Shown one piece after another: positions 1-57,135 of a DNA stretch of 64,000 nt. The notes beneath the pieces are model-generated. The model did not search any database. It was not told the DNA's origin and worked only from the letters and a program-made list of their open reading frames with translations. Location: assembly GCA_963514005.1 (NCBI GenBank), contig OY740787.1, forward strand, positions 34,410,001 to 34,474,000, read 5' to 3'. The first letter of the stretch is position 1. Every line of letters begins with the position of its first letter. Both the position numbers and the translations under genes were made by a program. The DNA is from Raja brachyura (Eukaryota).

Positions 1-1404
1 ATGCTCATATAGCCACAGAGCATGTAAATAGCTTTGGCCCACATGGTCCACAGAGACCATTAAGCATCCATTTGTACAAATCCTATTTTTTTGAATGCAT
101 CCCACATTCTCATCAACACATCCCCAGAGTCTAACCCTCCTCTTACACACTGGGGGCAACTAACTGGGCCAATTAATCTACAAACTAACATATTTTTTGA
201 ATGTTGGAGGTAACCAGAGCACATAGTAGAAACATGCTATGCCACAGTGTCACTCAAAACATTTGTCCTGAAACATTAATTATTTCCCTTTCCACAGATG
301 CTGCCTGACCTGCTGAATGTTTCCAGCATGTATTGTTTTATTCCAGATTTCTAGAGTTTTTGTTACTTTCAATATGCCAGGCCTCCTGACTTAATTTTCT
401 CTCCAAACCAATCACCATATTTATTCCAGTCTACAGAGTCCTGAAAATCCCTCTTTGGCTCTTGATAAATGCCTGATAGCATGATACATCAGTTCAGCCC
501 CAATAACTCATCACATAAGCCACCTAACTAATCCTACATCCAACCCCAGGCACCCAACACAGTGTTTAACCAAATACTGGAGTAACTCAGCGGGACAGGC
601 AGCATCTCTGGAAAGAAGGGATGGGTGACATTTCAAGTCGAGACCCTACTTGAGAGATGCTGCTAGCATTTAGTGTCCACCTTCGATTTAAACCAGCATC
701 TGCAGTTCTATCCTACTCAGTGTTTCACCATCCAATTTCCTCATCGCACCATCTTCAGTCCCCAATATCTTGTGTTCTACTGTGAAAAATGAAGAATTAT
801 TCACCACTCAAGTTCCAGATGCTCTTGAAAATATATGTCATTGAGCAAATTACAATATATTTGTGGAATTTTAACTTGTTTTGTAGCTTGTGAAAGTAGT
901 TGACTACACTAAGATATTGTATTGCAGATTTCAACAATAAACATATGTCAAAGCTGTCCAAGGTCAACCGCAAAATGTTAATAAAAATAATGGCATTAAT
1001 GTAGTGCCTCATATCCTGTGAAGCAGTTTGAAAACATAGTCAATGGATTATTCTTGATCCATAACCTTACTTGCAACTCACAATTTCCTCCACACATTCA
1101 ATTTCTGTTCTCCGGTTGGACAGGAGCCTTGCTACTGTTGCAGTGGCTAGGTTTCAAGTGGCAGGTCCTGACTCCTCACCCCTGGGTAACTCTGATGATC
1201 TTTTGGTAGCCTGTGCTGTCCAGTGGGTCTTTTCAACTTTTTGTTAATATCTGTGATTGTCACTGATAGTTATATCAATTAAAATATAAATTATCTATAG
1301 AAATATGGACCAAATGCTGGCAAATGGAGCTAGCCCAGAACGCCAACTTGGTCAGCATGGACAAGTTTGGCCCAAGTACCTACTTCCATGCTGTATAATT
1401 TTAG

Positions 1405-1710
1405 AGGTGACACGGTGGTGTAGCAATAGACTAGCTGTCTAACAGCAGCAGAGACACGGTTCAATCCTGACTACGGGTGCTTGTCTGTATGGAGTTAGTA
1501 CCCGTAACCTACGTGGTTTTGCTCCGAGATCTTTGGTTTCCTCCCACACTCCAAAGACGTAGAGGTTTGTAAGTTAGTTGGCTTGGTAGAAATGTAAAAA
1601 TGTCTCTAGTGTGTGTAGGATAGTGTAAGTGTGTGGGGATCACTGGTCGGTGAGGACTCGGTGGGCCGAATGGCCCGTTTCCGCACTGTATCTCTAAACT
1701 AAACTCTAAA
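1405..1710 (+). mobile_element. tRNA-derived SINE (HE1-like)
   Basis: tRNA-like head with A box (ggtggtgtagc) and B box (ggttcaatcc), conserved body (gtttcctcccacactccaaagacgt) and (CTAAA)n tail. Related copies occur throughout the window. Confidence 0.75.
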
Positions 1711-2349
1711 CTAGGACTCTTATTCATTAAAAAATAAAAAATAAATGAAAAACATTTTTTTTTTAATATATTTAACTGATATAAGTTAAAAGTATTTGTG
1801 TTATGTAACATACTGAAACTACTTAATTCGTTTGATATTTCAATCCAGCCATCAAGCTTAAGGCTGGGAGTCAAAATGAGCTCTACCCCTGAACTGAGAC
1901 AAGCGGCAGAGCAGGATATGCCAGCAATTGACCAATGCAGATTCCTGCCTTTTGCATGATACTGTGGAGACGCAGAAGGCAGGAATGTAGTGACCAGTGA
2001 AGGGGACCTTGCCAAACCACTGGCAAAAACGAAGTACATTTCAACTCACAGTAGGTAAAAATGTCAACAAAGGTCTTCAGAAAATGTAGTGAGGCATATG
2101 AACAGCTAATCTGATTTTTTTTTCCTGTTATGAACACCTCATTTTTTTGACTAATGCCATAGGAACATGTGCATTAACCTTCAAAGTTAGTAAGGTTTTC
2201 ATGTTAATGCTAATCTGAAAAGTGACACCCCTTCAGTACTGCACTGAATTACTGTATCTGCTGATATTAAATGCACAAGGCAATAAGGGTTTCAGCCCTT
2301 AATTTAATTTTAGAAAATTCAGAGGTGAAGGTGCTATCACTGACCTTGG

Positions 2350-3421
2350 AAAGTGGTGAAATCATTGGACAAAGTCAGCATGGATTTATGAAAGGTAAAT
2401 TATGTCTGGCGAATCGTATTGAATTTTTCGAGGATGTAACTAGTAGAGTGTATAAGGGAGAACCAGTGGATGTGTTATATCTGGACTTTCAGAAGGCTTT
2501 CGACACGGTCCCACATAAGAGAGTAGTATGCAAACTTAAAGCACATGGTATTGGGGGTTCAGTATTGATGTGGATAGAGAACTGGCTGGCAGACAGGAAG
2601 CAAAGAGTAGGAGTAAACGGGTCCTTTTCAGAATGGCAGGCAGTGACTAGTGGGGTACCGCAAGGCTCTGTGGTGGGACCCCAGCTATTTACAATATATA
2701 TTAATGATCTGGCAAGGGAATTGAATGCAACATCTCCAAATTTGCGGATGACACTAAGCTGGGGGGCAGTGTTAGCTGTAAGGAGGATGCTAGGAGGATG
2801 CAAGGCGACTTGGATAGGTTGAGTGAGTGGGCAAATGCATGGCAGATGCAGTATAATATGGATAAATGTGAGGTTATCCACTTTGGTGGCAAAAACAGGA
2901 AAGTGAATGATGGACGATTAGGAAAAGGGGAGATGCAACGAGACCTGGGTGTTATGGTACACCAGTCATTGAAAGTAGGCATGCAGGTGCAGCAGGCAGT
3001 GAAGAAAGCGAATGGTATGTTAGTATTCATAGCAAAAGGATTTGAGTATAGGAGCAGGGAAGTTCTACTGCAGTTCTACAGGGTCTTTGTGAGACCACAC
3101 CTGGAGTATTGCGTACAGTTTTGGTCTCCTAATCTGAGGAAAGACATTCTTGCCATAGAGGGAGTACGGAGAAGGTACACCAGACTGATTCCTGGGATGG
3201 CAGGACTTTCATATGAAGAAGGACTGGATAGACTCGGCTTATACTCGCTAGAATTTAGAAGATTGAGGGGGGATATCATGGAAACTTACAAAATTCTTAA
3301 GGGGTTAGACAGGCAAAATACAGGAAGATTGTTCCCGATGTTGGGGAAGTCCAGAACAAGGGGTCACAGTTTATGGATAAAGGGGAAGTCTTTTAGGACA
3401 GAGAGTGGTGAATCTGTGGAA
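2350..3421 (+). mobile_element. CR1 LINE, 5'-truncated RT fragment (left part, split by the DIRS)
   Basis: ORFs 2271-2822 and 2798-3442 give QHGF, YLDFQKAFD, SGVPQGSV, FADD (frameshifted) and RPHLEYCVQFWSP, all CR1 ORF2 motifs. Confidence 0.93.
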
Positions 3422-3447
3422 TTTCATTTCGGAGTCACGTGAGTGAC

Positions 3448-3483: not shown

Positions 3484-3557
3484 TCGTCGTAACGCGTTGC
3501 TGCGACGGCTGGCGGTGGAGCGCGCTCCTCGCCAGCCCTTCATAAGGGGCCACGGAG

Positions 3558-5357
3558 GTGAGTATTCCACCTTTAGTTGGTGGTCCTTGTTGTCTGATTA
3601 TGTCTTGCAGCAAGGACATGGATGGGAGTTCGAAGGGCCGGAGGACGTCAGGACGAGTTCGCCGGTCAACAGTTCCGGGGCCTTTACCATCGGCAGTACC
3701 TGCAGCGCGGGCCGGGACTCAGGCGGAGATGTGGGTAAGCCCTGTGTTCACAGGTCCAGATCCGCCAGCACACCACAGCTCGGAGGAGTTCGGTGAGGAG
3801 GAGTGTGGTGTGCCGCCAGAGCAGGGGGACCCTGCCATGGCAGTCAGGTTGTCAGCGGGCTCGCTGGCGACCTCGAGCAGGGCGCGTGCCGTTGCACGGC
3901 CTGTTCCACTCAGCCCTCCGAGAAGGGGGAGGGGAGGAGCCCAGAAGCCTAACCCTGTTAGGGCTAAGGCATTGCCTGTCGCGGAGGAGCGGTCAGGTTC
4001 CAGGGCGAGACCCGGGGCGGCTGTGAGGTCCAGCCGGCACACCCCGACTCTCGACGCCGGGACGGGTCGGTTGAGTCGGGTCTCGTCGCGGTCGCCGAGC
4101 CCCCCATGGATGGGTGGGCGGCACCATGCGTCGGCAACGTCCACGATGTGGGCAGCCGGCAAGCCTGCGCGGGCCCCAGGCAGCCATGCTTCGGCTGGTG
4201 CCGACACCTCGCCGCATGTGCCCTTAGTGGCAGCGGCTTCAGCTCTCGCTAAACGGAGGCGATTGAACACGCCCGCGCAGGAATCGCGCAGTTTCGCCTC
4301 GGCGGCTGTTAGCGACAACTACCGGCACCGGCAGGGCCTCGACGAGGTGCGGGCCGATGACAGGAGCCCGGTTTTCTTTTCAGAGCCGGAGGACTCCGAC
4401 CACCTGAGTGTTCAGGGTGAAGGGCGTATTGACCGTATGGAGCGGCTGCTGGAGCTCCTGCTTCAACGTCAACAACAGCAGGGCAGCAACAGGCACAGGG
4501 CGTCTTCACCAACATCTACTATCAGCCTGGAGCAGCACGAGGAGGAGGTTCTGGTGGATCCCGTACCACCTCCGGTGGAGGTGCCAGCGGAGGAACTTTT
4601 GGATGTGGCGACCAAATTCGCGGCCCCACATACGGCTGGTCTTCCTCTCAATTCAAAGCTGGCAGCCACAGTGGACTTTCTTAATAATCAGGTGCTGCAG
4701 GAAGAAGTCCTCATCCAGGCTATGAGCCGTCACAAGGCTCCATCAAACTGCAACTCCCTCAACGTGCCTGTGGTCAATACGCCAATATGGGGCAACATCA
4801 GTGCGGCTATCCGTCAACAAGAGCTACAATTGCAGCGGATCCTGAAACTCCTCACGGCCGGTATTACCGCCTTTGCGCGGTCGGTGGACGAGGACGAGCT
4901 GAATTTGGACCAGGAAGATGCTCTGGCCTTATTGTGCGCGACCCAGCACGAAATCAACGGGTTTCGCAAAAACAGCATCCGCCCAGCACTCAACCCGAAG
5001 TTTGCAGGATTGTGCAAACCACCGCCGCCGCCGCCGCCCCGTCAGCTCTTTGGTGAGGACCTCTCGAAGAGAGTCAAAGAGCTTGACGAACAAGCCAAAA
5101 CGGTGGGGATCATGCGCTCTAAGAGTGCCCCCACACCGTCCGGCTCAAAAGCTCCATACATTCGCTCACGAGGGTCGGCCAGTGCCTCGACGAGGACTCA
5201 CCCTCTAGCTCCACAACGACAACAACACCAGAACCAGCACCAAGGGTCTTTTTTAGGACAGGGTCGGCAGAGACCTTTTTGGAAATCGAAGACGCCGCGC
5301 CCTCAAGCCAACCCAGCACCTCCACGGCCACCCACACGTGTCAAGGACCGCCGGTAA
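3558..5357 (+). CDS. gag: DIRS ORF1, gag-like protein
   Basis: 599-codon open frame in the first ORF position, with a Ser/Arg/Pro-rich N-terminus and a conserved-looking C-terminal part (PSNC..L.VP.VN..IW, LFGEDL). First ATG is at 3600 and an in-frame ACG lies at 3552. Confidence 0.85.
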   Translation: MSIPPLVGGPCCLIMSCSKDMDGSSKGRRTSGRVRRSTVPGPLPSAVPAARAGTQAEMWVSPVFTGPDPPAHHSSEEFGEEECGVPPEQGDPAMAVRLSAGSLATSSRARAVARPVPLSPPRRGRGGAQKPNPVRAKALPVAEERSGSRARPGAAVRSSRHTPTLDAGTGRLSRVSSRSPSPPWMGGRHHASATSTMWAAGKPARAPGSHASAGADTSPHVPLVAAASALAKRRRLNTPAQESRSFASAAVSDNYRHRQGLDEVRADDRSPVFFSEPEDSDHLSVQGEGRIDRMERLLELLLQRQQQQGSNRHRASSPTSTISLEQHEEEVLVDPVPPPVEVPAEELLDVATKFAAPHTAGLPLNSKLAATVDFLNNQVLQEEVLIQAMSRHKAPSNCNSLNVPVVNTPIWGNISAAIRQQELQLQRILKLLTAGITAFARSVDEDELNLDQEDALALLCATQHEINGFRKNSIRPALNPKFAGLCKPPPPPPPRQLFGEDLSKRVKELDEQAKTVGIMRSKSAPTPSGSKAPYIRSRGSASASTRTHPLAPQRQQHQNQHQGSFLGQGRQRPFWKSKTPRPQANPAPPRPPTRVKDRR

Positions 5358-11404: not shown

Positions 11405-11739
11405 AGGTTAACAGCATCTCTTTTTCTTTCTATGCTAATTCTGGCTTTCTATCTCAATACTCAGCATGATAATCTGGTGCTGCTTAACTTTGCTAAATAT
11501 CTCCTAACCCTTGTCCCTGTCTCCTTATTACAGATCCATTTGTGGCTGTGTTGCAGCTGAAAGAGAGGAGCCATTTGCATTGTGTTAAACTGAAGATAGA
11601 CACAAAATGCTTTAGTACCTCAACGGGTCAGGCAGCATCTAGCTGAAAAGGAATAGGCAACATTTTGGTGTGGAACCCTCTGCAATGTGTTAAATGTTTG
11701 GTGATATGTTTGATCGTCTTAATGTGTATGGTGATGTAT

Positions 11740-11868
11740 GTGTAGGACTGCAAATGCTGGTTGAAATCGAAGGTAAACACAAAATGCTGGAGTAACTCGG
11801 CGGGGTAGACAGCATCTCTGGAGAGAAGGAATGGGTGATGTTTCGGGTCGAGACCCTTCTTCAGACTT
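11740..11868 (-). mobile_element. Penelope-derived short insert with hammerhead motif
   Basis: Reverse complement reads gtctgaagaagggtctcgacccgaaacatcac...ccagcatttgcag. Confidence 0.75.
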
Positions 11869-12005
11869 ATGTATGGATTTAGGTGGTGTATGAGTGCTGC
11901 CTACACAGATGCCTCCACACAGAGGAAGAGACACGGTTTGGTTGCTCAAAAAAATGGAAGCAACAGGAAGTGTAGCTGATTTTCATACCACCAGTGTCCA
12001 ATTCC

Positions 12006-12215
12006 TGAAGATAGACACAAAATGCTGGATTAACTCAGCGGGCCGGCAGCATCTCTGGAGTGAAGGAATAGGGAACGTTTCGGGTCGAGACCCTTCTTCA
12101 ATCTTGACCCGAAATGTCACCCATTCCTTCTCCCTAGAAATGTTGCCTGTTCCACTAAGTCACTTCAGCATTTTGTGTCTTCAGTTTAAACCAGCATCTG
12201 CAGTTCCTTCCTACA
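12006..12215. mobile_element. Penelope-derived short insert, inverted pair with 14-bp TSD
   Basis: An inverted copy followed by a forward copy, flanked by cagtgtccaattcc (11992-12005 and 12216-12229). Confidence 0.85.
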
Positions 12216-13225
12216 CAGTGTCCAATTCCAATCTGAGAATTATGCTGTAGCAAACATGATCTGGTCTAAGCTTAAATTCAACTCTTGAATGTTGATAAAA
12301 TTGTTAGATTGATAGTAGATTGAATAAATCATAGGTATTTATGACAATTATAGATTTTATCTGACTACATTTCATTGGGAACATGATTCCATTAGAATGT
12401 TAATTTAAGAACACATTTGATTGTATATTGATTTTCTTTACTTAACTTTAGTTTTGTTGATGTTTCAGAATATGATTTTCACATATAAATACTGCTTTTT
12501 CAATAATTCAGTTTATTGAATAAAGAGCAAGGAAGCATTGTCCTGTTGCTGCACCATCAGTTGACATTCCTATTGAAAAAAAGCTGTTGTTACCACTGAA
12601 CCGAGCATCTATGTATCTGATAATCTGAAAGGCTAATCTTTACACAGACTGGAGCAAGTATTACCATATTCTTATCTCCTTATTCTCTCCCTTCACATGT
12701 GATTACTTCTTGTAACATGATCTTTTCCAATTTATCTTGGATATTGCACAGTGATAGCCTATAGCACTGGAATTCAGCACCAGCTTATTTGAGAAGTGAT
12801 GAGATGTGATGAGGAGATATTTTAAAGCAATAGCTGATAACTGGAATGAACTCCAATCTTAACTTTCAAAATAGAATTGGATAAAAAAATGAAAAGGAAA
12901 TACTTCAAGGCCATGTGTAAAGACAGAACTAAGATTAAAATGAAAAGCTCATTGAGATGGTACTGGCTTGATGGACTGATTGGTCATCTTTCGTCCTGTA
13001 TCACCCTACAACTTAAATGCAAGTGTGAGTAATAAATAAAAATAAAAATAATCAACATCTCTTCACAATCATTAGGACATGTAGCAGAAAACATGTTGAT
13101 GTAGAAATTGATAATGGAAGCTATTTAGATATGGGGGCAGGGGTACAGCACTAGATTCAATCGTCCCATAAAATAGCATGGTGATCAGACGGTATGACTG
13201 GCCCAACCCATTTAAAATAGATGTG

Positions 13226-16600: not shown

Positions 16601-17998
16601 TTTGCTACACAGATACTGCCTAACTTGCTACATACAGCATTTCCACCCTTTTCTATGTTTACCTCGGAGTGCTACCATCTGTATTATTTTGCTTTGAGAT
16701 GAAGCCACACATACATAGTAATTGTTATCTAATATAATCCTGTCCCAACAGTGAAAACTGATACCCTACTGTTATTATTTCCCCGAAATCGGGTCCACTG
16801 ATTTTATTACTTGTTTTCCGCATGTAGCATTTTTATTCCCCAAGAACAAAGTAAATGATTACCGTTACATTTTGCTTATTGCTATGAGTTAAGTCGTTAC
16901 CTCGTACCTGGCTAAGCCACTCCAGTGCGAAATGTTTGCAGATATAATTTCATGACCTCAAATACATTGCTTTCACAATTGCATTTTGTACTGTCAATAC
17001 ATTAAAATATTCACCAAACCACCCAATTTGATTCAGTCATTACATGGCCATGAATTCAAGATTTATTTTAAAACCTGGTTCAGAATTTGAATACTTCATC
17101 CAGCCTAATGATCTGCTGCAATACTGAGGGTATTCTGCATTATCAGAAATACTGTGTGTTTTTTGATATAATGCAACACCCTTAATCCAAGTACAGCAAA
17201 GTGCCTTAATTAAACTATCTTTTTTCCCTAAAACATTTTCTGCTACAAACTAGTAACCAAGTTACAAACTTGCGACCAAGTTTCTGCCCGAAACGTTGCC
17301 TATCTCCTTCACTCCTTAGATGCTGCTGCACCCGCTGAGTTTCTCCAGCTTTTTGTGTACCCTCGATTTTCCAGCATCTGCAGTTCCTTCTCTAAGACCA
17401 AGTTATCGATGGCTTGAGGCCTACAACAGCCTGGAGCTTGCTAGAATTAGACACCGCTTATAAAAACTGGAGTGTGGAATGGACTTGGAAAATGGAACCT
17501 CTTGCATGGGCACTCAGTAGATTATTTCTGTACAGTTGCTAATTGGGGATATGCTTAGGTATGGCAAGCTTACTTGTCTGTTTGTAAGAAAATAATTTTA
17601 CTGTGTGTTTGTTCTTCACACATGTGACAATAAAGCATAATTGATCCATTGAACCATTGAATTGACTGTTGCTTTTTCTGAGGTAGCACTGCTAATTTCA
17701 AAATAAATAATTGGATATGAAGCACTTTGGGAAGTTGTGATGAAATCGTTAGGAAGTATTAAATGTAAGTCCTTTCTTTCTAAATAACAGAAGAACACGA
17801 GTTAACAGGTGAGGAGTAAGCTGCCATTTAATATAGCTAATTTATGCGAGCCTCAACTCCTATCCTGAGCCAGTTCCCCATTACCCTTAATTTTTCAACA
17901 TAAATATTTACCTATATCCACCTGATGGATATCCAATGAACTGGCCTCTGCCTCCCTCAGTGGAGAGAATGCCAAAGATTCACTACCCACTGCACACC

Positions 17999-20847: not shown

Positions 20848-21130
20848 GGTGGCACAGTGGTACAGCAGTAAAGTTGCAGCCTCATAGCACTTGACACCCG
20901 GGTTTGATCCTGACCACGGGTGCTGTCTGTACAGAGTTTATATGTTCTCCCTGTGACTGCATGGGTTTTCTCTGGGTGTTCCGGTTTCCTCCCACACTCC
21001 AAAGACATAGGTTTGTAGGATAATTGGCTCCGGCAAAATTATTAAAATTGTCCCTGGTATGTAGGGTAGTGTTAGTGTATGGGGTGATCGCTGGTTGACG
21101 CAGTACCTCTGAAGTCTAAAGTAAAGTAAA
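20848..21130 (+). mobile_element. tRNA-derived SINE
   Basis: Same family as 1405-1710. Confidence 0.7.
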
Positions 21131-21619
21131 CTCAGCAGGTCAAGCAGCATGTGTGCAGGGAATGGACAGTTAACCTTTCAGGTTGGAAGAGTCTCGACTT
21201 GAAATTTGGTCTGTCTATTCCCTCCACAGATGTTGCCTGGCCCACTGAATCCTCCAGCCTTTATTTTTTTCCTTAAGATTCCAATATCTGCACCTTCTTG
21301 TTTATCAAATCAACATTATCCTTGACCTCCCCTTTAACCACAGATTGTGCATATTTCTCACGAATCTCTCTTTCTAATTGGCGTAAATTCCTGGTGATGA
21401 TTATAGACAGCTGTTAGAATACCTTCCCCAGTTCATCTACTGACGTCTCTTAGCTTATTTTCCCTCTCCACCTTGGAAACGCCACCTACATGCCATTACC
21501 ATTTCCTTTAATTAAGTTTGCCTTCAAACTGCATTTGGAATTGTATCATATTATAGTCACCATCTGCTAGGGGATCTTCAACCACAAATTCTCTTATAAA
21601 CCCTTCTTCATCCTGCTCC

Positions 21620-22009: not shown

Positions 22010-23270
22010 ACTGTAGATACCAAATGCTGGAGTAACTCAGCGGGACAGGCAGTATTTTTGGAGAGAAGGAATGGGTGAGGGGAGGGGGTGGGACAAAGAT
22101 AGAATGTAATCAAAGACCATAAGACTAGTGGAAGAACTGGGAAGGGGGTGGGAATAGAGAGAGAATGCAAGGGCTATCTGAAGTTAGAGACGTCAATGTT
22201 CATACCGCTGGGGTGTAAACTACCCAAGCAAAATATGAGGTGCTGTTCCTCCAATTTGCGCTGGGCCTCACTCTGACAATGGAGGAGGCCCAGGACAGAA
22301 AGGTTAGATTGGGAATTGGAGGGGCAGTTGAAGTGGGAGATCAGGTAGGTTATGACGGACTGAGCGGAGGTGTTCAGCAAAACGATCGCCGAGCCTGCGC
22401 TTGGTCTCACCAATGTAGGGAAGTTGACACCTAGAACAGTGGATACAGTAGATGAGTTTGGAGAAACATAGAAACATAGAAACATAGAAACATAGAAACA
22501 TAGAAACATAGAAACATAGACATAGAAACATAGAAATTAGGTGCAGGAGTAGGCCATTCGGCCCTTCGAGCCTGCACCGCCATTCAATATGATCATGGCT
22601 GATCATCCAACTCAGTATCCCGTACCTGCCTTCTCTCCATACCCTCTGATCCCCTTAGCCACAAGGGCCACATCTAACTCCCTCTTAAATATAGCCAATG
22701 AACTGGCCTCAACTACCCTCTGTGGCAGAGAGTTCCATAGACCCACCACTCTCTGTGTGAAAAAATTCCTTCTCATCTCGGTCCTAAAGGATTTCCCCCT
22801 TATCCTTAAGCTGTGACCCCTTGTCCTGGACCTCCCCAACATCGGGAACAATCTTCCTGCATCTAGCCTGTCCAACCCCTTAAGAATCTTGTAAGTTTCT
22901 ATAAGATCCCCTCTCAATTTTGGGAGTTCAGCAAAGAGCCTATAGCGCGCTATAGGATCTTTGCTCATCGGATCGCTCCGTGCCTCGCTCGGGTCCCCGC
23001 GAGGTGCAAGTGAACCTCTGCCTCATCTGGAAAGACTCTTTGGGTCCTAGGATGGAGTCGAGGTGGGAGGTAAAGTGACAGGTATTGAATCTCCTGCAGT
23101 TGCAGGGGAAAGTACCTGGGGAGGGGGTGGTTTGGGTGGGAAGGACGAGTTGACCAGGGAGTTTCAGAGGGAACGGTCTCTGCAAAAAGCAGAAATGGGT
23201 GGAGATGGGAAGATGTGGCCAGTAGTGGGATCCCGTTGGAGGTGAAGAAAATGTTGGAGGTTTATATGCT
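22010..23270 (-). mobile_element. Penelope-like element 3' part (GIY-YIG endonuclease), split by a CR1 insertion
   Basis: PGTFPCNCRR..TC...GPK.SFQ.RQRFTCTS, then LIYCIHCSRC.L.YIGETKRRLGDRFAEHLRSVR and RKLEEQHLIF.LGSL.P.GMN. Confidence 0.88.
22463..22918 (-). mobile_element. Young 5'-truncated CR1 LINE with (CTATGTTT)n tail
   Basis: LRGDLIETYKILKGLDRLDAGRLFPM...WNSLPQ, with about 9 units of aaacatag at 22464-22535. Confidence 0.92.
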
Positions 23271-24367
23271 GTATTGACTGTTCTATGTACTTAACACAAC
23301 ATGCATATACCATTAAAAATTATATTTTCTGCACTATGAATTATTTGCCTTATCATGCTAAATGTAAATGTAAACTTATTATGTAAATAATTGTAGGTAA
23401 TTGACAAAATGAGTAGTGGTGATAGACTATGTTTAATAGAACAGATTACTATAAATCTTAAATTATTGAATGCTCTTGGAAATGTTTTAATCACAGCTTT
23501 CAAAAGTGAGTTAAACAAAAATACTTGATCATAAACAATTTTCGGACAATGGGAAGAACAAGTCAGTAAGACTAACTAGAAAGAGTTGGGTTAGCATGCA
23601 AGATTGAATGGTCTCCTTTGGGTAGTATTGTTCCATGATTCATTACTTATGTGTAATTTTCCAACTATTTCTTTTGAAACTTGGGTGAGATGTCATTTTT
23701 CTCTCCATATTTCGCCCTTACATGCTCTATACCCATCATTTCTGTATTTATTCTGTTCTCCCGTAGTAATAATAATTGGTAGCATCTCTTCTTATTGAGT
23801 TAGAGTTCCATCAGTAAAATCACATTAATGCAATATTTCATTTGTTTTCTTTTATTTCAGATTTCCATACCTATAGTTTTTGTTTCAATTTTTGTTCTGG
23901 TGACAATCATATTTTATGAAAGCTACATTATACCAGACTAGTTATGTGTTTAATGGTTCAAAATTAAAGAAAGGAAAGAGGATTTTCTGATGTGATTTAA
24001 GGAGCTAACATCTTACTGTAGATTTATCTCCATTCACAGTTCAGGGTTATCGGGTTATTTTGTAGCTCATGTAGATCCTTTGAAATTTAAACAAGATTAA
24101 AAAAAAAACGATATATATTTTTAAGGCATAAACAGTTTTCAGATTAGAGGCAATAGGGAAGATTGCATCTTATTAGTGGGGCTAAAGGGGGTAGGAATTC
24201 ATTCCCTGAAATATTCTGATGTAGTTTTAGTTTACACCCCTTGCTTCTGACATAGTGAGTATGCCAAATTCATGCTACTTGCTAATTTACAATTGCAGCA
24301 TGCAACCAGTACAATTCATGCTGTTAAGTGGCTGCAGGTCTCAGAAGGTTGCTCAATATCATGAGTG

Positions 24368-25148
24368 TTAAAGAAGGAACTGCAGATGCTGGAAAATCGA
24401 GGGTACACAAAAGGCTGGAGAAACTCAGCGGGTGCAGCAGCATCTAAGGAGCGAAGGAGATAGGCAACGTTTCAGGCCAAAACCATTCCTCAGACCCTTG
24501 TGAAGAAGGGTTTCGGCCCGAAACATTGCCTATCTCCTTCACTCCTTAAGGGCCTGACCTACCAGCATGCAACTCCATGCGATGAGCACGACCAAACTGG
24601 CAGCGGGGACCGCATGGAGGTCGGGTGATCCCTGTACAGGGCTGTTCCCAACAGCATGCGCCTGCATGCGGCAAGCGCGACCAAACTGGCAGCGGGGGCC
24701 GCACGGAGGTCGGGTGAGTGGCGCAACGCGGCGCAAAGTGAGGCAAAGTTGGAGCGAAGTCTTAAAGGTAAGTTCGCCAGGAAAGAGAGGGACACACAGA
24801 GAGGGGCACAGAGGCACACACAGAGAGGGCCACGGAGCCACACACAGAGAGGGTCATGGAGGCACCTACAGAGAGTGTCACGGAGGCACGACGTCGAGAC
24901 TGTGTGTAATGCGTCGAGGCGACTGCGAGCCGACAAGCCGTTGCCGCGTGGAATTTCTGAACATGGTCAGTTTTTTGGAACCCCGCGCGATGTCGGGACA
25001 AACGCCGCACAATTCTGCTCGGCTCCACAACGCCGGATGGCTCAAGCGACCACGTTAGGTCGCGCTCATCGCATGGAGTTGAATGCTGGTGAGACAGGCC
25101 CTTTAGATGCTGCTGCACCCGCTGAGTTTCTCCAGCCTTTTGTGTACC
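24368..25148. mobile_element. Penelope-derived inverted-pair insert (16-bp TSD) hosting a MITE
   Basis: ctcaatatcatgagtg at 24352-24367 and 25149-25164. Confidence 0.85.
24549..25102. mobile_element. Non-autonomous PIF/Harbinger-like MITE
   Basis: TIRs agggcctg...cagcatgcaactccatgcgatgagc / gctcatcgcatggagttgaatgctggtgagacaggccct. TTA is duplicated, and the empty host site ctccttagatgc is seen in other copies. Confidence 0.85.
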
Positions 25149-25181
25149 CTCAATATCATGAGTGCCTAGCACCAGTTAAAG

Positions 25182-25717
25182 TTAAGAGATACGAAAAGCT
25201 GAAGTAGCACAGTAGGACAGGCAGCATCTCTGGAGAGAAGGAATCGGTGACGTTTCTGGTCGACACCTTTCTTCAGACTAATTATGGTAAAGGGAAAAGA
25301 GAGATATAGATGATGATGTAGAGAGATAAAGAACAATTAATAAAAGGTATGTAAAAAGTAACAATGATAAAGGAAACAGGCCATTGTTAGCTCTTTGTAG
25401 CGTGAAAATGAGAATCTGGTGCGACTTGGGTGGGGGAGGGGTAGAGATCGAGGGAACGCTGGGTTTACTTGAAGTTAGAGAAATCAATATTCATAGCACT
25501 GGGCTGTAAGCTGCCCTATCAAAGGTATGAATTGTTCTTTCTCCCTCTACATCATTGTCTATGTCTCTCGTTTCTCTTTTCCCTAACTAGTCTGAAGAAG
25601 GATCTCGACCCGAAACGTCACCCATTCCTTCTCACTAGAGATGCTGCCTGTCCCACTGAGTTACTCCAGCTTTTTGTGTCTATCTTCAGTTTAAACTAGC
25701 ATCTGCAGTTCCTTCCT
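25182..25717. mobile_element. Penelope-derived inverted-pair insert (13-bp TSD)
   Basis: gcaccagttaaag at 25169-25181 and 25718-25730. Includes the GIY-YIG C-terminal remnant and hammerhead motifs on both strands. Confidence 0.85.
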
Positions 25718-26604
25718 GCACCAGTTAAAGCAAGCCTGCCTTGCTTGAAATTAGTGTGCCTCTCTTCTGGAAAGTTTCGTAACCTTCAGCATCAAACCTT
25801 CCAACGTTATGACATTATCAACTGGTCATATTTCCACCCCCGTCCTCTTCCCTTGAACTTCACGTTTTTCCTCTTCTCTTCTAATTTTACATCTTCCATT
25901 TCCTTTTTATCTCTCGACTTTATACTCCCGATTAAGCCAATCAAACTCCCCTCACCTGTATCCACCACAGAGACAATGAGAGGTGAATACAGGTGAGGGG
26001 AGTTTGATTGGCTTGATCCCAGCAATGTGTTTTTTTTTGTAAACCAGCATTTCAGTTCCTTATGAATCCTATGAACATATTTTATGTTGCACATGACATT
26101 GAATGATTGACAAAAAAATTAAACTGGTGGAAGAGCTCAGTAGTTAGGCAGCATCTGTAAAGGCAAATGTAAGGTTAATGTTTTGGGCCAACACACTACA
26201 TCAGTAGTATTTTGCTTTTGCCATAACTCAATGTAATTTAAACCAACATTTTATATCACGAACATTCTCCAATTATAGTGTTGTAATCACCGTTTATCCA
26301 TTAAAAAAATATTTTTGAGTATGGAATTTGATTGTGTTGAGTGTTACTTCCATTTGCTCTTTACTGGCCAAAAACCTCACAAGAACACCACTTGATCCGA
26401 TTCAGAGGAATGAATTTTTTATCTTTTAAGTGCTGTTTATTTAGCTTTTATATCCTCTTGACCTAATACACAGCAAAATTTACAATCAAAAGATCTTTAT
26501 TGTTCTTTGCTTTTATCACCTTCGGTCCTTCAATAGCAATCTGCAGCCAATTAAATAATTTTGCTTTGAAGTAAGGTCATTTTTGAATGTAGATTATATG
26601 ATAA

Positions 26605-36206: not shown

Positions 36207-36593
36207 TGTTGATGATATGTGTGTACACCTTTAACAGTAGTGACGCAGCCCTTGCTAACCACTCCCCTTATCATCTAGTATAACTGTGACCTTCCCACCC
36301 ATAGCTCTCTCTCTCTCTCTCTAGTGTCCATGACAGACCACGTACAGCTAGGGCAGTAATGTGTGTCTGAGTCTGAGTCCGAGTCTGACTTCAGAGTCTG
36401 AAGAAGGGTCTCGACCCGAAACGTCGCCAATCTCCTTTGCTCCTTAGATGCTGCTGCACCCGCTGAGTTTCTCCAGCTTTTTGTGTAACCCTCGATTCTC
36501 CAGCATCTGCTGTTCCTTCTTTAACAGTAATATGTGGGTTTAATTAATAAAGTTGTAGTAAAGATTCATCTGTGTATGCGCCTATTCTTTACA
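36207..36593 (+). repeat. 3' LTR interrupted by a Penelope-derived insert
   Basis: Matches the 5' LTR; the insert at ~36366-36524 is flanked by cagtaatgtgtg / cagtaatatgtg. Confidence 0.93.
36396..36427 (+). ncRNA. Minimal type I hammerhead ribozyme motif (Penelope-type)
   Basis: GU-CUGAAGA-A-GGGU(CUCG)ACCC-GAAA-C-GUC-GC: conserved core boxes, stem II, palindromic minimal stem III and GUC triplet. Stem I is only about 2 bp. Confidence 0.6.
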
Positions 36594-49766: not shown

Positions 49767-50959
49767 GACAAACCCAAAGTGCGATATACTGTATAAGTAA
49801 AGTGAAAGTAGCTTGGATGATAGAAACTGGAGCAATGATGTCTGATAGTCTTCATCAATAGGCCGCGCTTTCCTAGTCTTCATATGACTTCTCCGTGGCC
49901 GAATTGGTATACGACTTCCTGCTCTTGGAGCTAGCACTCGAGCTACCATTTTCATTCAATGCTTGCTGACTCGCATGCAGTCCCAACCTCAGGAATCTCA
50001 CAGGAAATAAAAAGCACAAAGTGGTGGAGTAACTCAGTGGGTCAGATAACATGTCTGGAGTATATGGATAGGTAACATTTCATAATGGAACCTTTCTTTA
50101 ATCTGAAGAAAGCGCAAAATGTCACCAATCCATGTCCGGCAGATATCCTGCCTGATGCACTGAATTACTCCAGTACATGGTGAGTTTTTTTTATTGGTAA
50201 ACCAGCATCTGTATTTCCTAGTGTCTGTAAACTACTGATATTGCCTAGAATATACCAGGATCTTAATGTGCATTTATGTGTCCAATGGCTTATTCTGACT
50301 TTAGTCTTAAATTTACCAACTAGACTCTGTAGAAGTGGAAATTGTAGGGGTTTGAATTAATGACATAGTCATGGTGAGCGAAGTAAAATTAGAAATGAAA
50401 GAAAGGTCAGAATATAGAGCCTGTTACAGCATGCACCTCAACAAAACTAAGGTGAGATCATCAAACATTTACAATGTTAGGCAAGATCATCTCCAGCAAT
50501 AAATTGCATTTATTGACATTCAACAGCCTTAACACAAGTCTCTCCACCATTAACATCCCTATAGAGCAGAAACTCAGCTAGACTATCTGTATAAATACAA
50601 GAACAGGTCAAAAGCTGGATATGCTATTGTACAAGACTCCCCAAACCTTTTCATAATTCACAACACAATTCATGGGGTGTTGGGATCTAGAATTATACGT
50701 TTGCAGTACCAAAAAAAATCATTGTATCCATGCTGGCTAAAAATAGAGCTGGTTTGGTTAACTTCCACCTCGTGACCCTTGGTCCTTGGATTTAGGCTCT
50801 AAAAATGCTTATCTAGATACTTTGTAAACAATGTGGCCTCACCACACTTCTTGTTAGTGAATTCCAGCTTCTTACTGTTTTCCACATGCCTGAAAGAGTT
50901 GCAGTCTAGAAACATATTGTATATCCAGTATAAAGTATCCCATTCAGCAGCCTAAATCT

Positions 50960-51645: not shown

Positions 51646-51744
51646 TAAATCTTTACTTCCTCTGTTAGCAGTGCATTAGACCTTCCTATGAAGTGCACTG
51701 CATTACTTGCCAAGTTAACTCTGAAAGCATTTCCCAAATTTGTG

Positions 51745-51870
51745 GTCTGAAGAAGGGTCTCGACCCGAAACGCCACGCATTCCTCGCCAGAGATGCTGCC
51801 TGTCCCGCTGAGTTACCCAAGCATTTTGTGTCTATCTTTGGCTTAAACCAGTATCTGCAGTTCCTTCTTA
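51745..51870 (+). mobile_element. Penelope-derived short insert with hammerhead-like motif
   Basis: gtctgaagaagggtctcgacccgaaacgcc...gcagttccttc, with cccaaa on both flanks. Confidence 0.75.
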
Positions 51871-53668
51871 CCCAAAGTGTTATCACCAAGAATAGAGGCA
51901 CATGGCAACACCATCTTTGTCTTCCAATCCCATCCTCTAGACTTGAGAAATATTGTTACTTCGCTATCACTGGATCCAAGTCCTGTGACTCCCTACCCAT
52001 CAGCACTGTTAGGAGTGCCTTCACAGTTCAAGACAAGGACTATCCATCATGATGTAAAGGGCAATCGGTGATGAGTAATAGATAATCCAATCATGTTAAT
52101 TAAGTAAAAGGTTCTGGATGAGATAGAAATAGGATGCTTTTATTGAGGATTTGATACAAACATGAGGTATTCTGACACAATATTTGGCAACAGCTGAGAA
52201 TTCTGAAGCATGCGACTCCATACCTGCCAGCATCCTCTCCTAATTACTCTGTGGGTCTGTTACCTAGCTAGTATGCGCTGTGTAAGGTGGGATGCGTGCA
52301 AGTGCTAGACAACTGGCAAGTGTGTGGGTTTATGCTGTGGAATCCAGGCATTATGTAGGGATTGTAATGGGGATTGTTGTTAGGCGAGTGATGGGCATGC
52401 AGTGAGCACAACAGTGTGCAAGTCAATAAATAGTTGTGCTGCCGTTGTTAGCTGGGCTTTACTGATGCGCTCATGGAGCGCAGTTGCAGGTGTGAATTAA
52501 TTAAATTTCCTGTTGCACTCTGATAGGGTCCTAGGGAATTACTCCTGGCTTTTATATCTTTGACAATTTCCTTGCAATGCAGCTTCCTCATAGATTTGAA
52601 GGGTTTCCAGGGTCCCCTGAGTGTGTATGATATTTCCTAGATCAGTCTGTTCCTCAAGGATTTTGAGAGTGGTTTTCTGATGAATGGATGCCTGCTCTCA
52701 TGTCAGCCTTACCAACGGCTTGTGCTGTGTGTTCCTCAATCGATTCCATTGCAGACAGTACAAACCTCCTTTAAGAGATTTTGAGGCCTGACTTTTATCA
52801 AAGCAGGCTACATTCAGCTGGTTCGAAATTCCTGAAATTACTTCCTGTTACAGTGCTCTAATATGAAACATAGAATGATTGGCCACCACTTAAGCAATCA
52901 AATCATTGAACGTGAGGCACATGTAAATTTTTGGCAAGAATGCACCAGGGACACACTGTTTGATGCTCTCAGGAGAGGTGCCAGTCTTCCCAGAGTATTA
53001 ATGAAAATTGCCTGTTTCTCTATAGTACCATAGAAATAACTTCCAAAATTCTGCATCTCACATCAAAAATCACTCCTTAAACTGCAAACATCATACGTTC
53101 TATAACACTCCTTTGGTTTATTCTTCAGTGCTGTGCTCACAATGACATCATTCAGATTTCATCACTATGGAAACAGCTGTTACTATAATTATACTAACAT
53201 CCTTCGCTGTCCCAGTCCCAGTTCCACCTCACCCCTGAGACAACATTGGGAATTTAACAAAACAACGTAATGGAATTTTCAATCATAGAGTCAGTTATGT
53301 TAGAATCACTTTCACAGTCTAAAGATTTCATTGATTGCATCACCACACATGGCCATACCCTCAGCTCCATGTTGGACAAAACATCAGTGAAGAAAGAATA
53401 GAAATGACAGTGGTAGAAGAAAAAGGTAGCATTCAAGTAATGCATGGATAAAAAGTGAATTTAGGAAATGTGTTGTATATCAGGTAGTCAGTGCGAGTGT
53501 AATAATGGAGTGTGATTCTGATTCGTAACATAGGCAAAGTGACACAAACTGACTTCATGGAGGAAAAAAAAATACCATGAAAAAACAAAAGTGAAAAGGC
53601 TATGTTCCATAAAAACACCTCTAACAATCCGTTTCCAGAAGTAGTTCTCTTCCTATTTTTAATAACTA

Positions 53669-54349
53669 CTAGACTAAGTGGGACTCGTTGGGTCCCTGTC
53701 ATACAGGAGGCCTGGTCCTCCAACACTATCCATTCTCCAACACAATATTCCACGCCCACCCATCACCCCCAACTGGACAGGCACGGCTCATTTCCCCTCA
53801 TTCCCCTGCACTCCTTCCCCCACCTCTTCGGAGACGGGTGCATATGGGGGGGGAGAGGGGGTTTGTGTGGGGGGAGGGGGTTTGTGTGGGGGTTTGTGTG
53901 GGGGGAGGGGGTTTGTGTGCGGGGAGGGGGTTTGTGTGGGGGGGAGGGGGTTTGTGTGGGGGGGAGGGGGTTTGTGTGGGGGGGAGGGGGTTTGTTGTGA
54001 GGGTGTTTGTGGGAGTAACACAGCCCACACTCCGCTCCTTCAGCTTTATTCTAGGCGTTGGTGATTGACAGCGGGTGCTGGAAGAGGCGTCGCCATCCCC
54101 GCGAATAACAGACTAATAACTTTTGTAATATTTCACCGATCGGAACAAACCTTGGTGCGCTTGGAGCAGAGGAGACAGGAGAATAAGGTGGCAAAAAATC
54201 CAAGCGGTTATAGGGTACCGTTTTTGCGCAAGTTTAAAAATAACGCAAACTGGAAGATCATAAGATGAGAGTTTTAATAATAGTATAGAAATGTAAAAAT
54301 CACCACAAAACGGAAAAGGACAAGATGAGAATTTTAGTAATAGTATAGA
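53669..54349 (-). mobile_element. Non-autonomous Helitron, complete
   Basis: On the minus strand: A|TCTATACTATTACTAAAA ... hairpin GGGACCC-AAC-GAGTCCC (53680-53696) ... CTAG|T, with no TSD. Confidence 0.85.
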
Positions 54350-54610
54350 TAGAAGATAGATAGCTTATTGAAACCAAGTGCAAACTGGAATCATTTGCTG
54401 CTAGTGAAATATGTTTGAGATAAGCTTATCTTCATGTTTATTTGCAACTGTGTACGAATGCCACCAAAAACAAAATCATAACTAACCTTATAGCTTAAAG
54501 CACACCAACACATTTGTCAAAATGGATTAGAAATAATTCATAATCTTTCAAGAAAATCTGATTCATTAAGCCAAGTACTTTCTGGAGCACTAGCATGGGT
54601 GTTGTGGGTC

Positions 54611-54868
54611 CAGTCAAGTCAAGCACAGTGAGTGCAGGGCCAACAATGCATTTCAATCCAGTTCAAGACGACTTCAAATCAATCCATTTCAAGTCAAGTC
54701 AAGTCAAATCAATCCATTTCAAGTCAAGTCAAGTCAAATCAATCCATTTCAAGTCAAGTCAAGTCAATCCATTTCAAGTCAAGTCAATCCATTTCAAGTC
54801 AAGTCACTCCATTTCAAGTCAAGTCACTCCATTTCAAGTCAATTCAAGCCAAGTAAATCCATTTCAAG
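54611..54868. repeat. (GTCAA)n / TCCATTTCAA composite minisatellite
   Basis: Repeated tccatttcaagtcaagtcaa units. Confidence 0.9.
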
Positions 54869-54959
54869 GGTTACACAAAAAGCTGGAGAAACTCAGCGGA
54901 TGCAGCAGCATCTAAGGAGCGAAGGAGATAGGCGACGTTTCGGGTCGAGACCCTTCTTC

Positions 54960-55560
54960 CATTTCAAGGGCAGGCCATACAACTCATTGCATTGTCATTC
55001 TATTTCCAATTTTGCATTGCAGTTTTAAGCACAGGCAGGGCAGGCCAAACAACGCAGTGCATTGGTACTTCATTTCCAATTTTGCATTGTAGTTTTAAGC
55101 ACAGGCAGGGCAGGCCAAACAATACATTGGATTGTCACTTCATTTCCAATTTTGTATTGTAGTTTCAAGCACAGGAAGAGCAGGCCAAACAACTCATTGC
55201 ATTGTCACTTCATTTCCAATTTTTCCTTGCAGTTTCATGCATGGGCAGGGCAGGCCAAATAAGTCATTGCATTGTCACTTCATTTCCAATTTTGCATTGC
55301 AGTTTAAGCACAAGCAGGGCAGGCCAAACAACTCATTGCATTGTCACTTCATTTCCAATTTTGCATTGCAATTTCAAGTACATGCAGGGCAGGCCAAACA
55401 AAGCAATGCATTGTCACTTCATTTCCAATTTTGCATTGCAGTTTCAAGCACAGACAGGGCAGGCCAAACAACTCATTGCTTTGTCACTTCATTTCCAATT
55501 TTGCATTGCAGTTGCAAGCACAGGCAGTGCAAGCCAAACAACTCATCGCATTGTCATTAA
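54960..55560. repeat. ~70-bp tandem repeat, about 8.5-9 units
   Basis: caggcca recurs at 54971, 55041, 55111, 55181, 55251, 55320, 55390, 55460 and (variant) 55530. Confidence 0.95.
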
Positions 55561-55859
55561 GGGCTGACAAATCATTTATTGCAAGTACATTGCAGACTCA
55601 CAGTTCAGTTGATTCACAGACTTTTAGTTATATATATTAGACAGGTACATTGATAGGACAGGATGAGGGATATGGGTCAAACGCAGGGAAGTGGGACAAC
55701 TGCAGATGGTACATGTTGGTCAGTGTGGGCAAAAAGGGCCTGTTTCCACACTGTATGACTATAATTCTGACTATTGTAGTTTCCAGGTTTAATACATACA
55801 AGTTATTACAACCTAATTTAACTTGTATTGAATCATAGAAAAGTGGATGCTCCAGTGGT

Positions 55860-57135
55860 GTCCTGGGATCACCAACTACCTGACTGGACGACCACAGTAT
55901 GCAAGTCTACAGAACTGTGTTTCGGACATGGTAGTGAGCAACATAGGGGCCCCACAGAGACAGTCCCCTCTCTCCTTCTGTTCACCATCTAAACATTGAA
56001 CTTCAGATACAACTCTGACTTCTGCCACCTACAGATGTTTTTGGATGGCTCTGCAATTGTGGGCTGCATCAGTGAGTGGAGGAAAGCTAAATACAGAGGT
56101 GTAGTCAATGACTTTGTTCAGTGGTATGGGCTAGATCACCTGCAGCTCAACCCTGACAAGGCTAAGGAGTTAGCGGTGGACTTTAGGAGGAGAGGAAGAT
56201 CCCTGCCCCCTGCCTACATCAAAGGTGTGGATGTGCAGTTTACCAAGAAGCACAAGTACCTTAGAGTTTAGGGTAGACAAAAGTGCTGGAGAAACTAAAC
56301 GGGTGCAGCAGCATCTATGGAGCGAAGGAAATAGGCAACGTTTCGGGCCGAAACCCTTTTCCTCCATCAGTCTGAAGAAGGGTTTCGGCCCGAAACATTG
56401 ACCATTTCCTTCGCTCCATAGATGCTGCTGCACCTGCTGAGTTTCTCCAGCACTTTTATCTACCTTCGATTTTCCAGCATCTGCAGTTCCTTCATAAATT
56501 CGTTGGAGTTTACTTGGATAGTAAACTGGACTAGTCCAGGAATGCTGAGGCACTGTATAAGAAGGGACAGAGGCATCTGTTCTTTATGAGGAGGCTTTTC
56601 TCTTTCAACATCTGCAGTAACATGCTGTAGGTGCTCAATCAATCGGTGGTGGCCAGTGCCATCTTTGTTGCTGTTGTGTGCTGGAGTAGCAGAGTGAAGG
56701 CTGCGGATGTCAACATAATTAACAAGCTTATCAGGAAGGCAGGCTCCATCCTGGGAGTGAAGTTGGATTCATTGGAGGTGGTCTTGGAGGGGAGGATGCT
56801 CCTCAAACTACGGAGCATCTTGGACAACACAGCTCTCCTCCTCCAGGACACACTAGTCAACCTGAGGAGCACCTTCAGCAACAGACTGGTTCCACCAAGA
56901 CACAGCACAGTACACCACTGGAGATCCTTCTTCCCTGTGGCTATGAAACTGTACAACTCCTTCCCCTTCTGTTATGGGGTAGACTGACTCCCCTTCCCCC
57001 CCAACCCCGCTTCAATCTTTGCATATCCCCATTCCTGGACTTTCCACTCATCACTTTAATTTCATGTATCTTGTTGTCTTTTATGACTATTGGCAGACCA
57101 ATTTCCCTCCTGGGATAAATAAAGTTCTATCATAT
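55860..57135 (+). mobile_element. Rex1/Babar-like LINE 3' fragment, interrupted by a Penelope-derived inverted pair at ~56270-56495
   Basis: HLQLN..K.KEL.VDFRR, KYL, QSVVASAIF.AVVCW and RSFFP.A.KLYN; aataaagttctatc tail. Confidence 0.82.

What the first reader, a model, noticed from the sequence alone, without database searches (positions are those of the whole stretch)
560..56495. Abundant Penelope-derived mini-retroelement family carrying a hammerhead ribozyme motif, often inserted as inverted pairs with 12-16 bp TSDs
Seen: about 15 or more copies of a ~130-bp unit (gtctgaagaagggtctcgacccgaaacgtc...ccagcatctgcagttcc). Several are flanked by their own TSDs (11992/12216, 24352/25149, 25169/25718, 36354/36525, 44935/45064), and many consist of an inverted copy plus a forward copy. 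The unit also terminates GIY-YIG-coding Penelope fragments (39610-40212). It matches the hammerhead core CUGANGA-stemII-GAAA-UH, and stem II pairing is kept in two variants (GGGU-CUCG-ACCC and GGGU-UUCG-GCCC). Established: Penelope terminal repeats carry minimal hammerheads thought to act as dimers through a palindromic stem III. Inference: these terminal-repeat-only units form a high-copy non-autonomous, ribozyme-bearing family (retrozyme/SINE-like), and they would litter any host pre-mRNA with potential self-cleavage sites and inverted-repeat dsRNA.
Basis: partly seen in the sequence, partly recalled or inferred. Interest (0 to 1): 0.7.

Follow-up and report, generated by a model that had tools for sequence, protein, structure and literature searches.

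The report
Penelope retrotransposon stubs carrying hammerhead motifs
These short repeats are stub-sized insertions of the ribozyme-motif-bearing end of a Penelope-like jumping gene, likely in a skate or ray, laid out in the already known 'inverted copy plus one-sided tail' pattern; the one extra is that about half of them begin just before the ribozyme motif, which likely marks the start of the copied RNA.

Summary
All five named target-site duplications are real (one has a mismatch). The unit is the terminal repeat (pLTR, with or without a 30-35-nt tail) of a GIY-YIG Penelope-like element. It carries the published minimal-hammerhead motif. A separate retrozyme/SINE family is not supported. 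Short and ORF-bearing copies interleave on a weak tree, every pair has its own junction, no tandem array occurs in the window, and no copy starts at the cleavage site. Only 2 of 38 hits keep the whole motif, and stem II covariation does not exceed shuffles. Inverted copies, a one-sided tail (10 of 10 pairs) and long TSDs are published Penelope anatomy. The 5' ends are not random, though: 18 of 37 lie within -6..+7 of the CUGA, and contigs of related animals show the same edge. My inference is run-off reverse transcription from Penelope's internal start sites to the RNA's 5' end. No RNA start or cleavage was tested. This scan has already reported the same family and the same edge in other windows and genomes.

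The parts
570..717 (.). Inverted pair: tail-less minus arm from -1, tailed plus arm; imperfect TSD about 562/720
11590..11680 (-). Solo tail-less arm starting at about +6; 14-bp TSD with one mismatch (11576/11681)
11743..11868 (-). Solo tailed arm starting at -3; core kept, ACGU palindrome lost; weak TSD
11992..12229 (.). Inverted pair with exact 14-bp TSD; tail-less minus arm from +2, tailed plus arm from +11
17283..17395 (+). Solo tailed arm starting inside stem II (no CUGA); 9-bp TSD
21128..21299 (.). Old inverted pair, no TSD found
22013..23290 (-). 5'-truncated ORF-bearing copy (linker and GIY-YIG), interrupted by other repeats at about 22465-23010; hammerhead core deleted internally
24352..25164 (.). 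Inverted pair with exact 16-bp TSD; arms start at -2 and +2; plus arm split by a ~555-bp insert with terminal inverted repeats
25169..25730 (.). Inverted pair with exact 13-bp TSD; tail-less minus arm reaches the ORF end (about -240), tailed plus arm from -66
36354..36536 (+). Solo tailed arm from -3 with whole hammerhead motif (C3 at 36398, predicted cut after 36425); short repeats of the arm's first bases lie between TSD and arm; 12-bp TSD with one mismatch
36594..37903 (+). Old 5'-truncated copy from RT end through linker and GIY-YIG to a tail-less pLTR
38606..38814 (+). Solo tail-less arm from about -84 with exact 16-bp TSD
39596..40226 (-). 5'-truncated copy with GIY-YIG fragment (39947-40208), 3' UTR and tail-less pLTR with whole hammerhead motif (C3 at 39702); 14-bp TSD with one mismatch
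41612..41749 (-). Solo tailed arm from about -6, G5 mutated, no TSD found
44935..45079 (.). Inverted pair with exact 16-bp TSD; both arms lack the hammerhead
46905..47208 (+). Copy of a third subfamily from the ORF end through 3' UTR to the tail
50013..50219 (.). Old inverted pair joined at the hammerhead 5' edge
51744..51871 (+). Solo tailed arm from -2; U16.1 mutated; no significant TSD
54858..54970 (-). Solo tail-less arm from +3 inside a satellite; exact 13-bp TSD; 96-98% identical to the ORF-bearing 39702 copy
56270..56498 (.). Inverted pair; tail-less minus arm from +7, tailed plus arm from about -16; TSD not significant
57981..58195 (.). Old inverted pair joined through a short quasi-palindrome at the hammerhead 5' edge
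60952..61097 (.). Inverted pair with exact 11-bp TSD; arms start at +11 and about +69, neither has CUGA
62366..62465 (-). Old solo arm; further old solo arms at 265-354 (+), 16575-16681 (+), 26121-26204 (-), 32283-32392 (-)

Best explanation
The units are stub insertions of the terminal repeat of a GIY-YIG Penelope-like retrotransposon, likely each made anew by the autonomous element's own enzyme at insertion, with the hammerhead motif likely riding along uncleaved and mostly decayed. Shown here: Penelope origin, TSDs of 9-16 bp, two classes of 3' end about 30-35 nt apart, one tailed and one tail-less arm in every inverted pair, a different junction in every pair, and a pile-up of 5' ends at the hammerhead's 5' edge. 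Inferred from the anole Penelope work (protein cuts and extends both strands, RT starts internally at two sites bounding the tail, ribozyme cleavage not needed): the enzyme nicks both strands 9-16 bp apart and primes one strand at the distal start (tail) and, in pairs, the other at the proximal start (no tail); the two cDNAs are joined head to head. Inferred and untested (about even odds): when RT starts at the upstream pLTR copy of the transcript it runs off the RNA's 5' end after 90-130 nt, which gives the fixed edge at about -3/-2; priming at the downstream copy gives the longer, variably truncated ORF-bearing copies.
For: Five arms run on into ORF sequence homologous to RT/GIY-YIG proteins. 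ORF-bearing and short arms are not clustered on the tree: 6 label changes against 6.4 shuffled, 232 of 500 shuffles as low; a short copy is 97.8% identical over 91 bp to an ORF-bearing one. 10 of 10 pairs have exactly one tailed arm, p=0.001, as described for Penelope (PMC8557442 and PMC3846280, passages). No two of the 10 junctions align beyond score 10 in 25 nt. 0 of 37 arms start within 3 nt of the cut site, 18 of 37 within -6..+7 of C3. In public contigs of related animals, hundreds end at -2 and go on into unrelated DNA (389 and 444 in two runs; 194 in a third). In 4 of 10 pairs the tail-less arm reaches further 5' than the tailed arm, which fits two primings better than a fold-back on one cDNA. 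All six long copies printed have a pyrimidine-A-G or similar context at the edge; five match YYAGTCT, which fits the initiator consensus YYANWYY (recalled).
Against: The tree has 63 columns and no strongly supported branch, so it does not exclude small short-only lineages. The fixed 5' edge is also what a short non-autonomous master would give. The same bases read as a splice acceptor after a pyrimidine tract, and in Drosophila virilis Penelope it is an intron end, not the RNA start, that abuts the hammerhead. An extra G expected from a copied cap is the plurality letter in two runs but not in a third. My 5' table was curated by hand; with only boundaries fixed by a TSD, partner arm or ORF it is 13 of 29 arms. 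Part of the depth step in public contigs comes from subfamilies that share the core but differ upstream. No full-length element, genome, raw RNA read or empty site was available.
Confidence: 0.75

Rival explanations
1. Independent short non-autonomous family: a ~130-nt RNA transcribed from stub copies, starting at the hammerhead edge, is mobilised in trans by the Penelope enzyme (SINE-like, without a role for cleavage).
For: Sharp 5' edge; the terminal repeat is 3.8- to 6.1-fold deeper than the bin just upstream in four runs (depth is no copy number); pLTRs suffice in cis for mobilisation in rotifers (PMC3846280 passage); putative non-autonomous PLEs are described for Chlamys.
Against: No short-only clade; 19 of 37 arms do not start at the edge; each of at least three subfamilies has both short and ORF-bearing copies.
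Confidence: 0.13
2. Retrozyme: tandem copies self-cleave as dimers, circularise and reinsert as ribozyme-delimited units.
For: The motif has the bulged base before stem II, the G10.1-C11.1 pair and the ACGU palindrome typical of dimer-acting minimal hammerheads. Rare head-to-tail joints repeating the 34-39-nt core exist in public contigs (12 of 49,033 laid in one run; 2-9 per run).
Against: No tandem array in the window; pairs are on opposite strands, so one transcript holds one sense core locked in a hairpin; 0 of 37 boundaries at the cut site; 2 of 38 whole motifs; the active-like dimer scores -12.7 against -25 to -28 kcal/mol for other folds (no tertiary contacts modelled).
Confidence: 0.04
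3. The edge is a reverse-transcription stop or annealing hot spot, not an RNA end: RT copying ordinary long RNA stalls at a splice-acceptor or protein-bound site, or the two cDNAs anneal through the short quasi-palindrome just 5' of CUGA.
For: Junction 57981-58195 is centred on that quasi-palindrome; palindromic junctions are reported in rotifer Penelopes; acceptor-like context.
Against: Solo copies bounded by TSDs show the same edge (36395, 54959, 11680), where no partner arm exists; most junctions are not centred on the palindrome.
Confidence: 0.3

Closest known systems
Insertion unit of endonuclease-bearing Penelope-like elements: pLTR, adjacent inverted 5'-truncated copy, one-sided 30-40-bp tail, TSD (PMC8557442, PMC3846280; passages read)
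   Same: Head-to-head inverted copy, tail on one arm only, strong 5' truncation, solo pLTRs, TSDs, C-terminal GIY-YIG with a CX4CX2C linker (Neptune/Nematis type).
   Different: TSDs here are mostly 11-16 bp (8-10 bp in the rotifer passages); stubs are very dense (27 in 64 kb); half the arms start at one short stretch at the hammerhead edge.
[quoted passage not shown]
   Same: CUGANGA core, extra base before stem II, G10.1-C11.1, palindromic CG at 15.2/16.2; mostly single motifs, and opposite-strand doubles 100-700 bp apart ascribed to truncated PLEs.
   Different: Stem II is 4-5 bp (7-8 in Schistosoma) and stem I has two contiguous pairs (4-5 there, 2 in D. virilis). No cartilaginous fish is named in the text I read; supplements not read.
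Poseidon of Anolis carolinensis, PAc (Frangieh et al. 2024, PMC11167929; parts 1-2 of 4 read)
   Same: Two 3' ends bounding a tail; copies keep the uncleaved hammerhead; both-strand cutting and extension would explain tailed/tail-less pairs.
   Different: PAc is of the Penelope/Poseidon clade; the paper did not address short run-off cDNAs in the parts read.
Animal non-LTR retrozymes (PMC7229834 passages; bioRxiv 10.64898/2026.07.22.740005 parts 1-3 of 5)
   Same: PLE-pLTR-derived, type I hammerhead, non-coding; reported in one chondrichthyan genome.
   Different: Defined by head-to-tail arrays of ribozyme-bearing units and circular RNA; here copies are single or inverted and are not bounded by the cut site.

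Membership tests
EN+ Penelope-like element | Unit lies 3' of an ORF with RT and C-terminal GIY-YIG endonuclease | tested here: met
   Five arms continue into sequence matching P0004/P0005 by tblastn, E down to 1e-41; P0004 has GIY-YIG above Pfam cutoff and a partial RVT_1 below it. The window fragments alone had no Pfam hit.
EN+ Penelope-like element | Inverted 5'-truncated copy and a 30-40-bp tail at one end only | tested here: met
   10 of 10 pairs have one tailed arm.
EN+ Penelope-like element | Target-site duplication | tested here: met
   12 of 27 events at p<=0.033.
EN+ Penelope-like element | Full-length partial tandem pLTR-ORF-pLTR and RT phylogeny | not testable with these tools
   No full-length copy in the window, no genome held, no reference set.
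Neptune or Nematis clade | Zn-finger-like CX2-5CxxC linker between RT and EN | tested here: met
   CX4CX2C in homologues, decayed forms at 23000-23146 and near 37200. Which of the two clades was not tested.
PLE minimal hammerhead | CUGANGA, bulged base, stem II with G10.1-C11.1, GAAA, palindromic CG, UH | tested here: met
   Whole in 36398 and 39702, the majority state of the family.
PLE minimal hammerhead | Stem I of 4-5 bp | tested here: not met
   Two contiguous pairs in most intact arms; predicted pairing probability 0.0 in 7 of 7 folded.
PLE minimal hammerhead | Covariation in stem II | tested here: inconclusive
   29 arms: covariation 0.237 against 0.213 shuffled, 71 of 500 shuffles as high; two old copies share a G-C to A-U change.
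PLE minimal hammerhead | Self-cleavage as dimer or with protein | not testable with these tools
   Needs an in vitro assay.
Non-LTR retrozyme | Head-to-tail array of ribozyme-bearing units | tested here: not met
   None in the window; rare core-only repeats in public contigs.
Non-LTR retrozyme | Unit delimited by the cleavage site; circular RNA | tested here: not met
   0 of 37 arms start at the cut site. Circular RNA itself could not be tested.
Independent non-autonomous family (SINE-like) | Own lineage apart from autonomous copies | tested here: inconclusive
   No clustering seen, but the tree has no strong branch.
Independent non-autonomous family (SINE-like) | Fixed 5' end | tested here: inconclusive
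   18 of 37 arms at one 14-nt stretch, 19 elsewhere.

The most novel reading that the evidence does not exclude
Skate Penelope stubs are a genome-wide footprint of the Penelope replication intermediate: the RNA starts 2-3 nt before the hammerhead core, the enzyme primes both DNA strands at two internal start sites (tail and no tail), and run-off from the upstream repeat mass-produces ~130-bp ribozyme-motif stubs with fixed ends, a SINE-like population that needs no master copy.
Probability: 0.4. Interest if true: 0.45.

Novelty: new member of a known kind. Interest (0 to 1): 0.25.

Why it matters
As a class it is known. Its use is as material: how Penelope elements make inverted copies and one-sided tails, and what their hammerhead does, are open questions. 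Thousands of young skate copies with two fixed 3' ends and one preferred 5' end would let twin priming, fold-back and run-off be told apart by counting and by one 5'-end mapping experiment. The dense inverted pairs are also a possible source of double-stranded RNA if they lie in transcripts, which was not tested.

Tried and rejected
Rfam: no hammerhead family at E<=1; the hits are sub-threshold microRNA models on the inverted pairs and were rejected. No whole genome is held, so no genome-wide consensus or strand-bias test. A degenerate 31-letter pattern found nothing in metagenome or viral contigs. PDB sequence search with P0004 gave nothing relevant. A copied-cap G at the 5' edge was considered and left inconclusive (disagree). 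Simple fold-back of the tailed first strand was judged less likely because the tail-less arm is the longer in 4 of 10 pairs, though central deletions could mimic this. Higher conservation of core positions (0.915) than of the rest (0.84) in 20 arms was not counted as evidence: the arms were selected for a gap-free core and the rest holds subfamily differences. The run X15 is only guessed to be RNA and is contigs, so it shows no transcription or start. The Lunse et al. dimer paper is not held and is cited only through a review. Searches for a printed description of this family in cartilaginous fish listed none; the skate genome paper does not contain the word Penelope. Repbase and Dfam could not be searched and may already name it; supplements of PMC4209133 were not read and those of the 2026 preprint are closed.
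Full report
Verdict. The repeats are real and more numerous than reported. They are stub insertions of a Penelope-like retrotransposon's terminal repeat in the published layout. A separate ribozyme-driven family is not supported. One feature, a preferred 5' edge at the hammerhead, remains unexplained by the papers I could read. Positions such as -3 or +29 count from the C of CUGA (+1).

1. Observation. A profile from nine window copies gives 38 hits and none in the reversed window. These are 37 arms in 27 insertions, 10 of them head-to-head pairs; 19 hits lie on each strand. Over all 27 events, 12 have a TSD at p<=0.033 against 1500 random position pairs, with event edges set by eye. Rfam finds no hammerhead family at E<=1.

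2. Parent element. The fragment at 39947-40189 (minus strand) is 85% identical to a protein named from Leucoraja erinacea and 63% to a whale-shark protein, P0004, so the host is likely a skate or ray. P0004 has a GIY-YIG domain above the Pfam cutoff and a partial RT match below it; the window fragments alone gave no Pfam hit. tblastn places ORF remains 5' of five arms: 22013-23290, 25182-25520, 36594-37903, 39609-40212 and 46905-47208. The linker motif CX4CX2C points to the Neptune or Nematis clade by the definition in PMC8557442 (passage); I did not separate the two.

3. Anatomy. 3' ends fall in two classes, 20 arms ending by +103 and 17 running to +109..+128. Every one of the 10 pairs has one arm of each class (p=0.001 against a coin flip); 7 of 17 solo arms are tailed. 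[quoted passage not shown] The 10 junctions all differ, so the pair is not copied as a unit. On a tree of 26 of the 38 hits (63 columns, no strongly supported branch), ORF- or UTR-bearing and short arms are not clustered: 6 changes against 6.4 shuffled. The short 54959 copy is 97.8% identical over 91 bp to the ORF-bearing 39702 copy.

4. Hammerhead. The family's majority state has CUGANGA, an extra base, a G-C-closed stem II, GAAA, the CG palindrome and UH, matching the published minimal motif. Only 8 of 38 hits keep the core and 2 keep everything (one search adds one row that is an alignment artefact). Stem I has two contiguous pairs. On 29 arms, stem II pairing and covariation do not beat shuffles (36 and 71 of 500 as high); some rows include flanking bases where arms are truncated. 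In 6 of 7 folded monomers stem II has probability <=0.16, and an active-like dimer scores -12.7 against -25 to -28 kcal/mol for other folds (tertiary contacts and protein not modelled). Published minimal motifs are inactive as monomers and weak as dimers; the anole one needs the protein, and its cleavage is not needed for insertion in vitro (PMC11167929, parts 1-2 of 4). Nine of the 10 pairs were folded and give hairpins of -33 to -252 kcal/mol.

5. The 5' edge. Of 37 arms, 18 start at -6..+7, 11 at +9..+74, 3 at -16..-84, 5 in the ORF, and none within 3 nt of the cut site at +29 (automatic values, several overridden by hand using TSDs and ORF matches). Among the 31 arms starting between -66 and +80, 18 in one 14-nt stretch was never reached in 200,000 uniform draws. 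Using only boundaries fixed by a TSD, partner arm or ORF, it is 13 of 29 arms and 10 of 19 events. Public contigs of four coded organisms agree: summed depth drops 3.8- to 6.1-fold across the edge, and 389 and 444 contigs in two runs leave the element at -2 with 0.31 agreement, that is into varied DNA; a third run gives 194. Limits: depth is no copy number, subfamilies that share the core but differ upstream add to the step, ORF-end bins remain well covered, and only 24 of 2341 and 12 of 304 loose-end rows were shown; none shown lies at the cut site.

6. Mechanism. From the anole work: the protein cuts and extends both strands, is predicted to be a dimer, and starts reverse transcription inside the RNA at two sites that bound the tail. 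Inference: one strand is primed at the distal site and, in pairs, the other at the proximal site, and the cDNAs join head to head inside a 9-16-bp staggered cut. In 4 of 10 pairs the tail-less arm reaches further 5' than the tailed one, which fits two primings better than a fold-back, barring central deletions. Further inference, about even odds: priming at the upstream repeat of the transcript runs off the RNA's 5' end, giving the fixed edge. Five of six long copies read YYAGTCT there, fitting the initiator consensus (recalled). The same bases are an acceptor-like AG after a pyrimidine tract, and in D. virilis an intron end abuts the hammerhead while the start lies about 120 nt upstream (passages). 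A copied-cap G is inconclusive.

7. Retrozyme test. Animal retrozymes are head-to-tail arrays, which I read in PMC7229834 (passages) and in a 2026 preprint that derives them from pLTRs and finds them in one cartilaginous fish (parts 1-3 of 5; supplements closed). The window has no such array. Rare joints that repeat only the 34-39-nt core occur in public contigs (12 of 49,033 laid in one run; 2-9 per run) and were not followed up.

8. Novelty. Searches listed no paper describing this family in cartilaginous fish, but Repbase and Dfam were not available and unread supplements may list it. This scan holds 12 notes with the same words in at least 3 genomes, 8 shown, reaching the same reading and three of them noting the same edge. 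My reading was written down before I saw them; their agreement is not independent evidence. Score 0.25: a new member of a known kind, with one testable lead on Penelope replication.

Noticed in passing
window 3546-8265 (+): DIRS1-type retrotransposon with long open frames: RT/RNase H region with a Dam-like tail (5123-7288) and a tyrosine recombinase (7171-8265); looks young.
   Followed up: partly
window 32841-35743 (+): Broken Gypsy-type LTR retrotransposon remains (gag-like, RT, RNase H, integrase-like frames).
   Followed up: no
window 24549-25103 and 38992-39582: Two copies (82% identical) of a ~560-590-bp element with ~50-bp terminal inverted repeats and TTA/TAA-like ends, MITE-like; one splits a Penelope arm.
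   Followed up: partly
window 36366-36394: Between TSD and arm lie several imperfect repeats of the arm's first six bases and a short inverted piece, as if RT re-primed repeatedly at the template's 5' end.
   Followed up: no
window 36395-36432 and 39668-39706, public contigs: Rare joints that go back 34-39 nt, i.e. head-to-tail repeats of the hammerhead core alone, which would be natural dimer candidates.
   Followed up: no
window 22078: An ORF-bearing copy has lost the hammerhead core by an internal deletion whose 3' end falls within 2 nt of the predicted cut site; single case.
   Followed up: no
window 54653-55558: TCAAG-based satellite followed by a 70-bp tandem array (8.4 copies); a Penelope stub sits at their border.
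   Followed up: no
window 46264-46812 (-): Transposase-like fragment matching DUF659.
   Followed up: no
window 40981-41055: Near-perfect 75-bp hairpin unrelated to the Penelope unit, seen as a sub-threshold Rfam hit.
   Followed up: no
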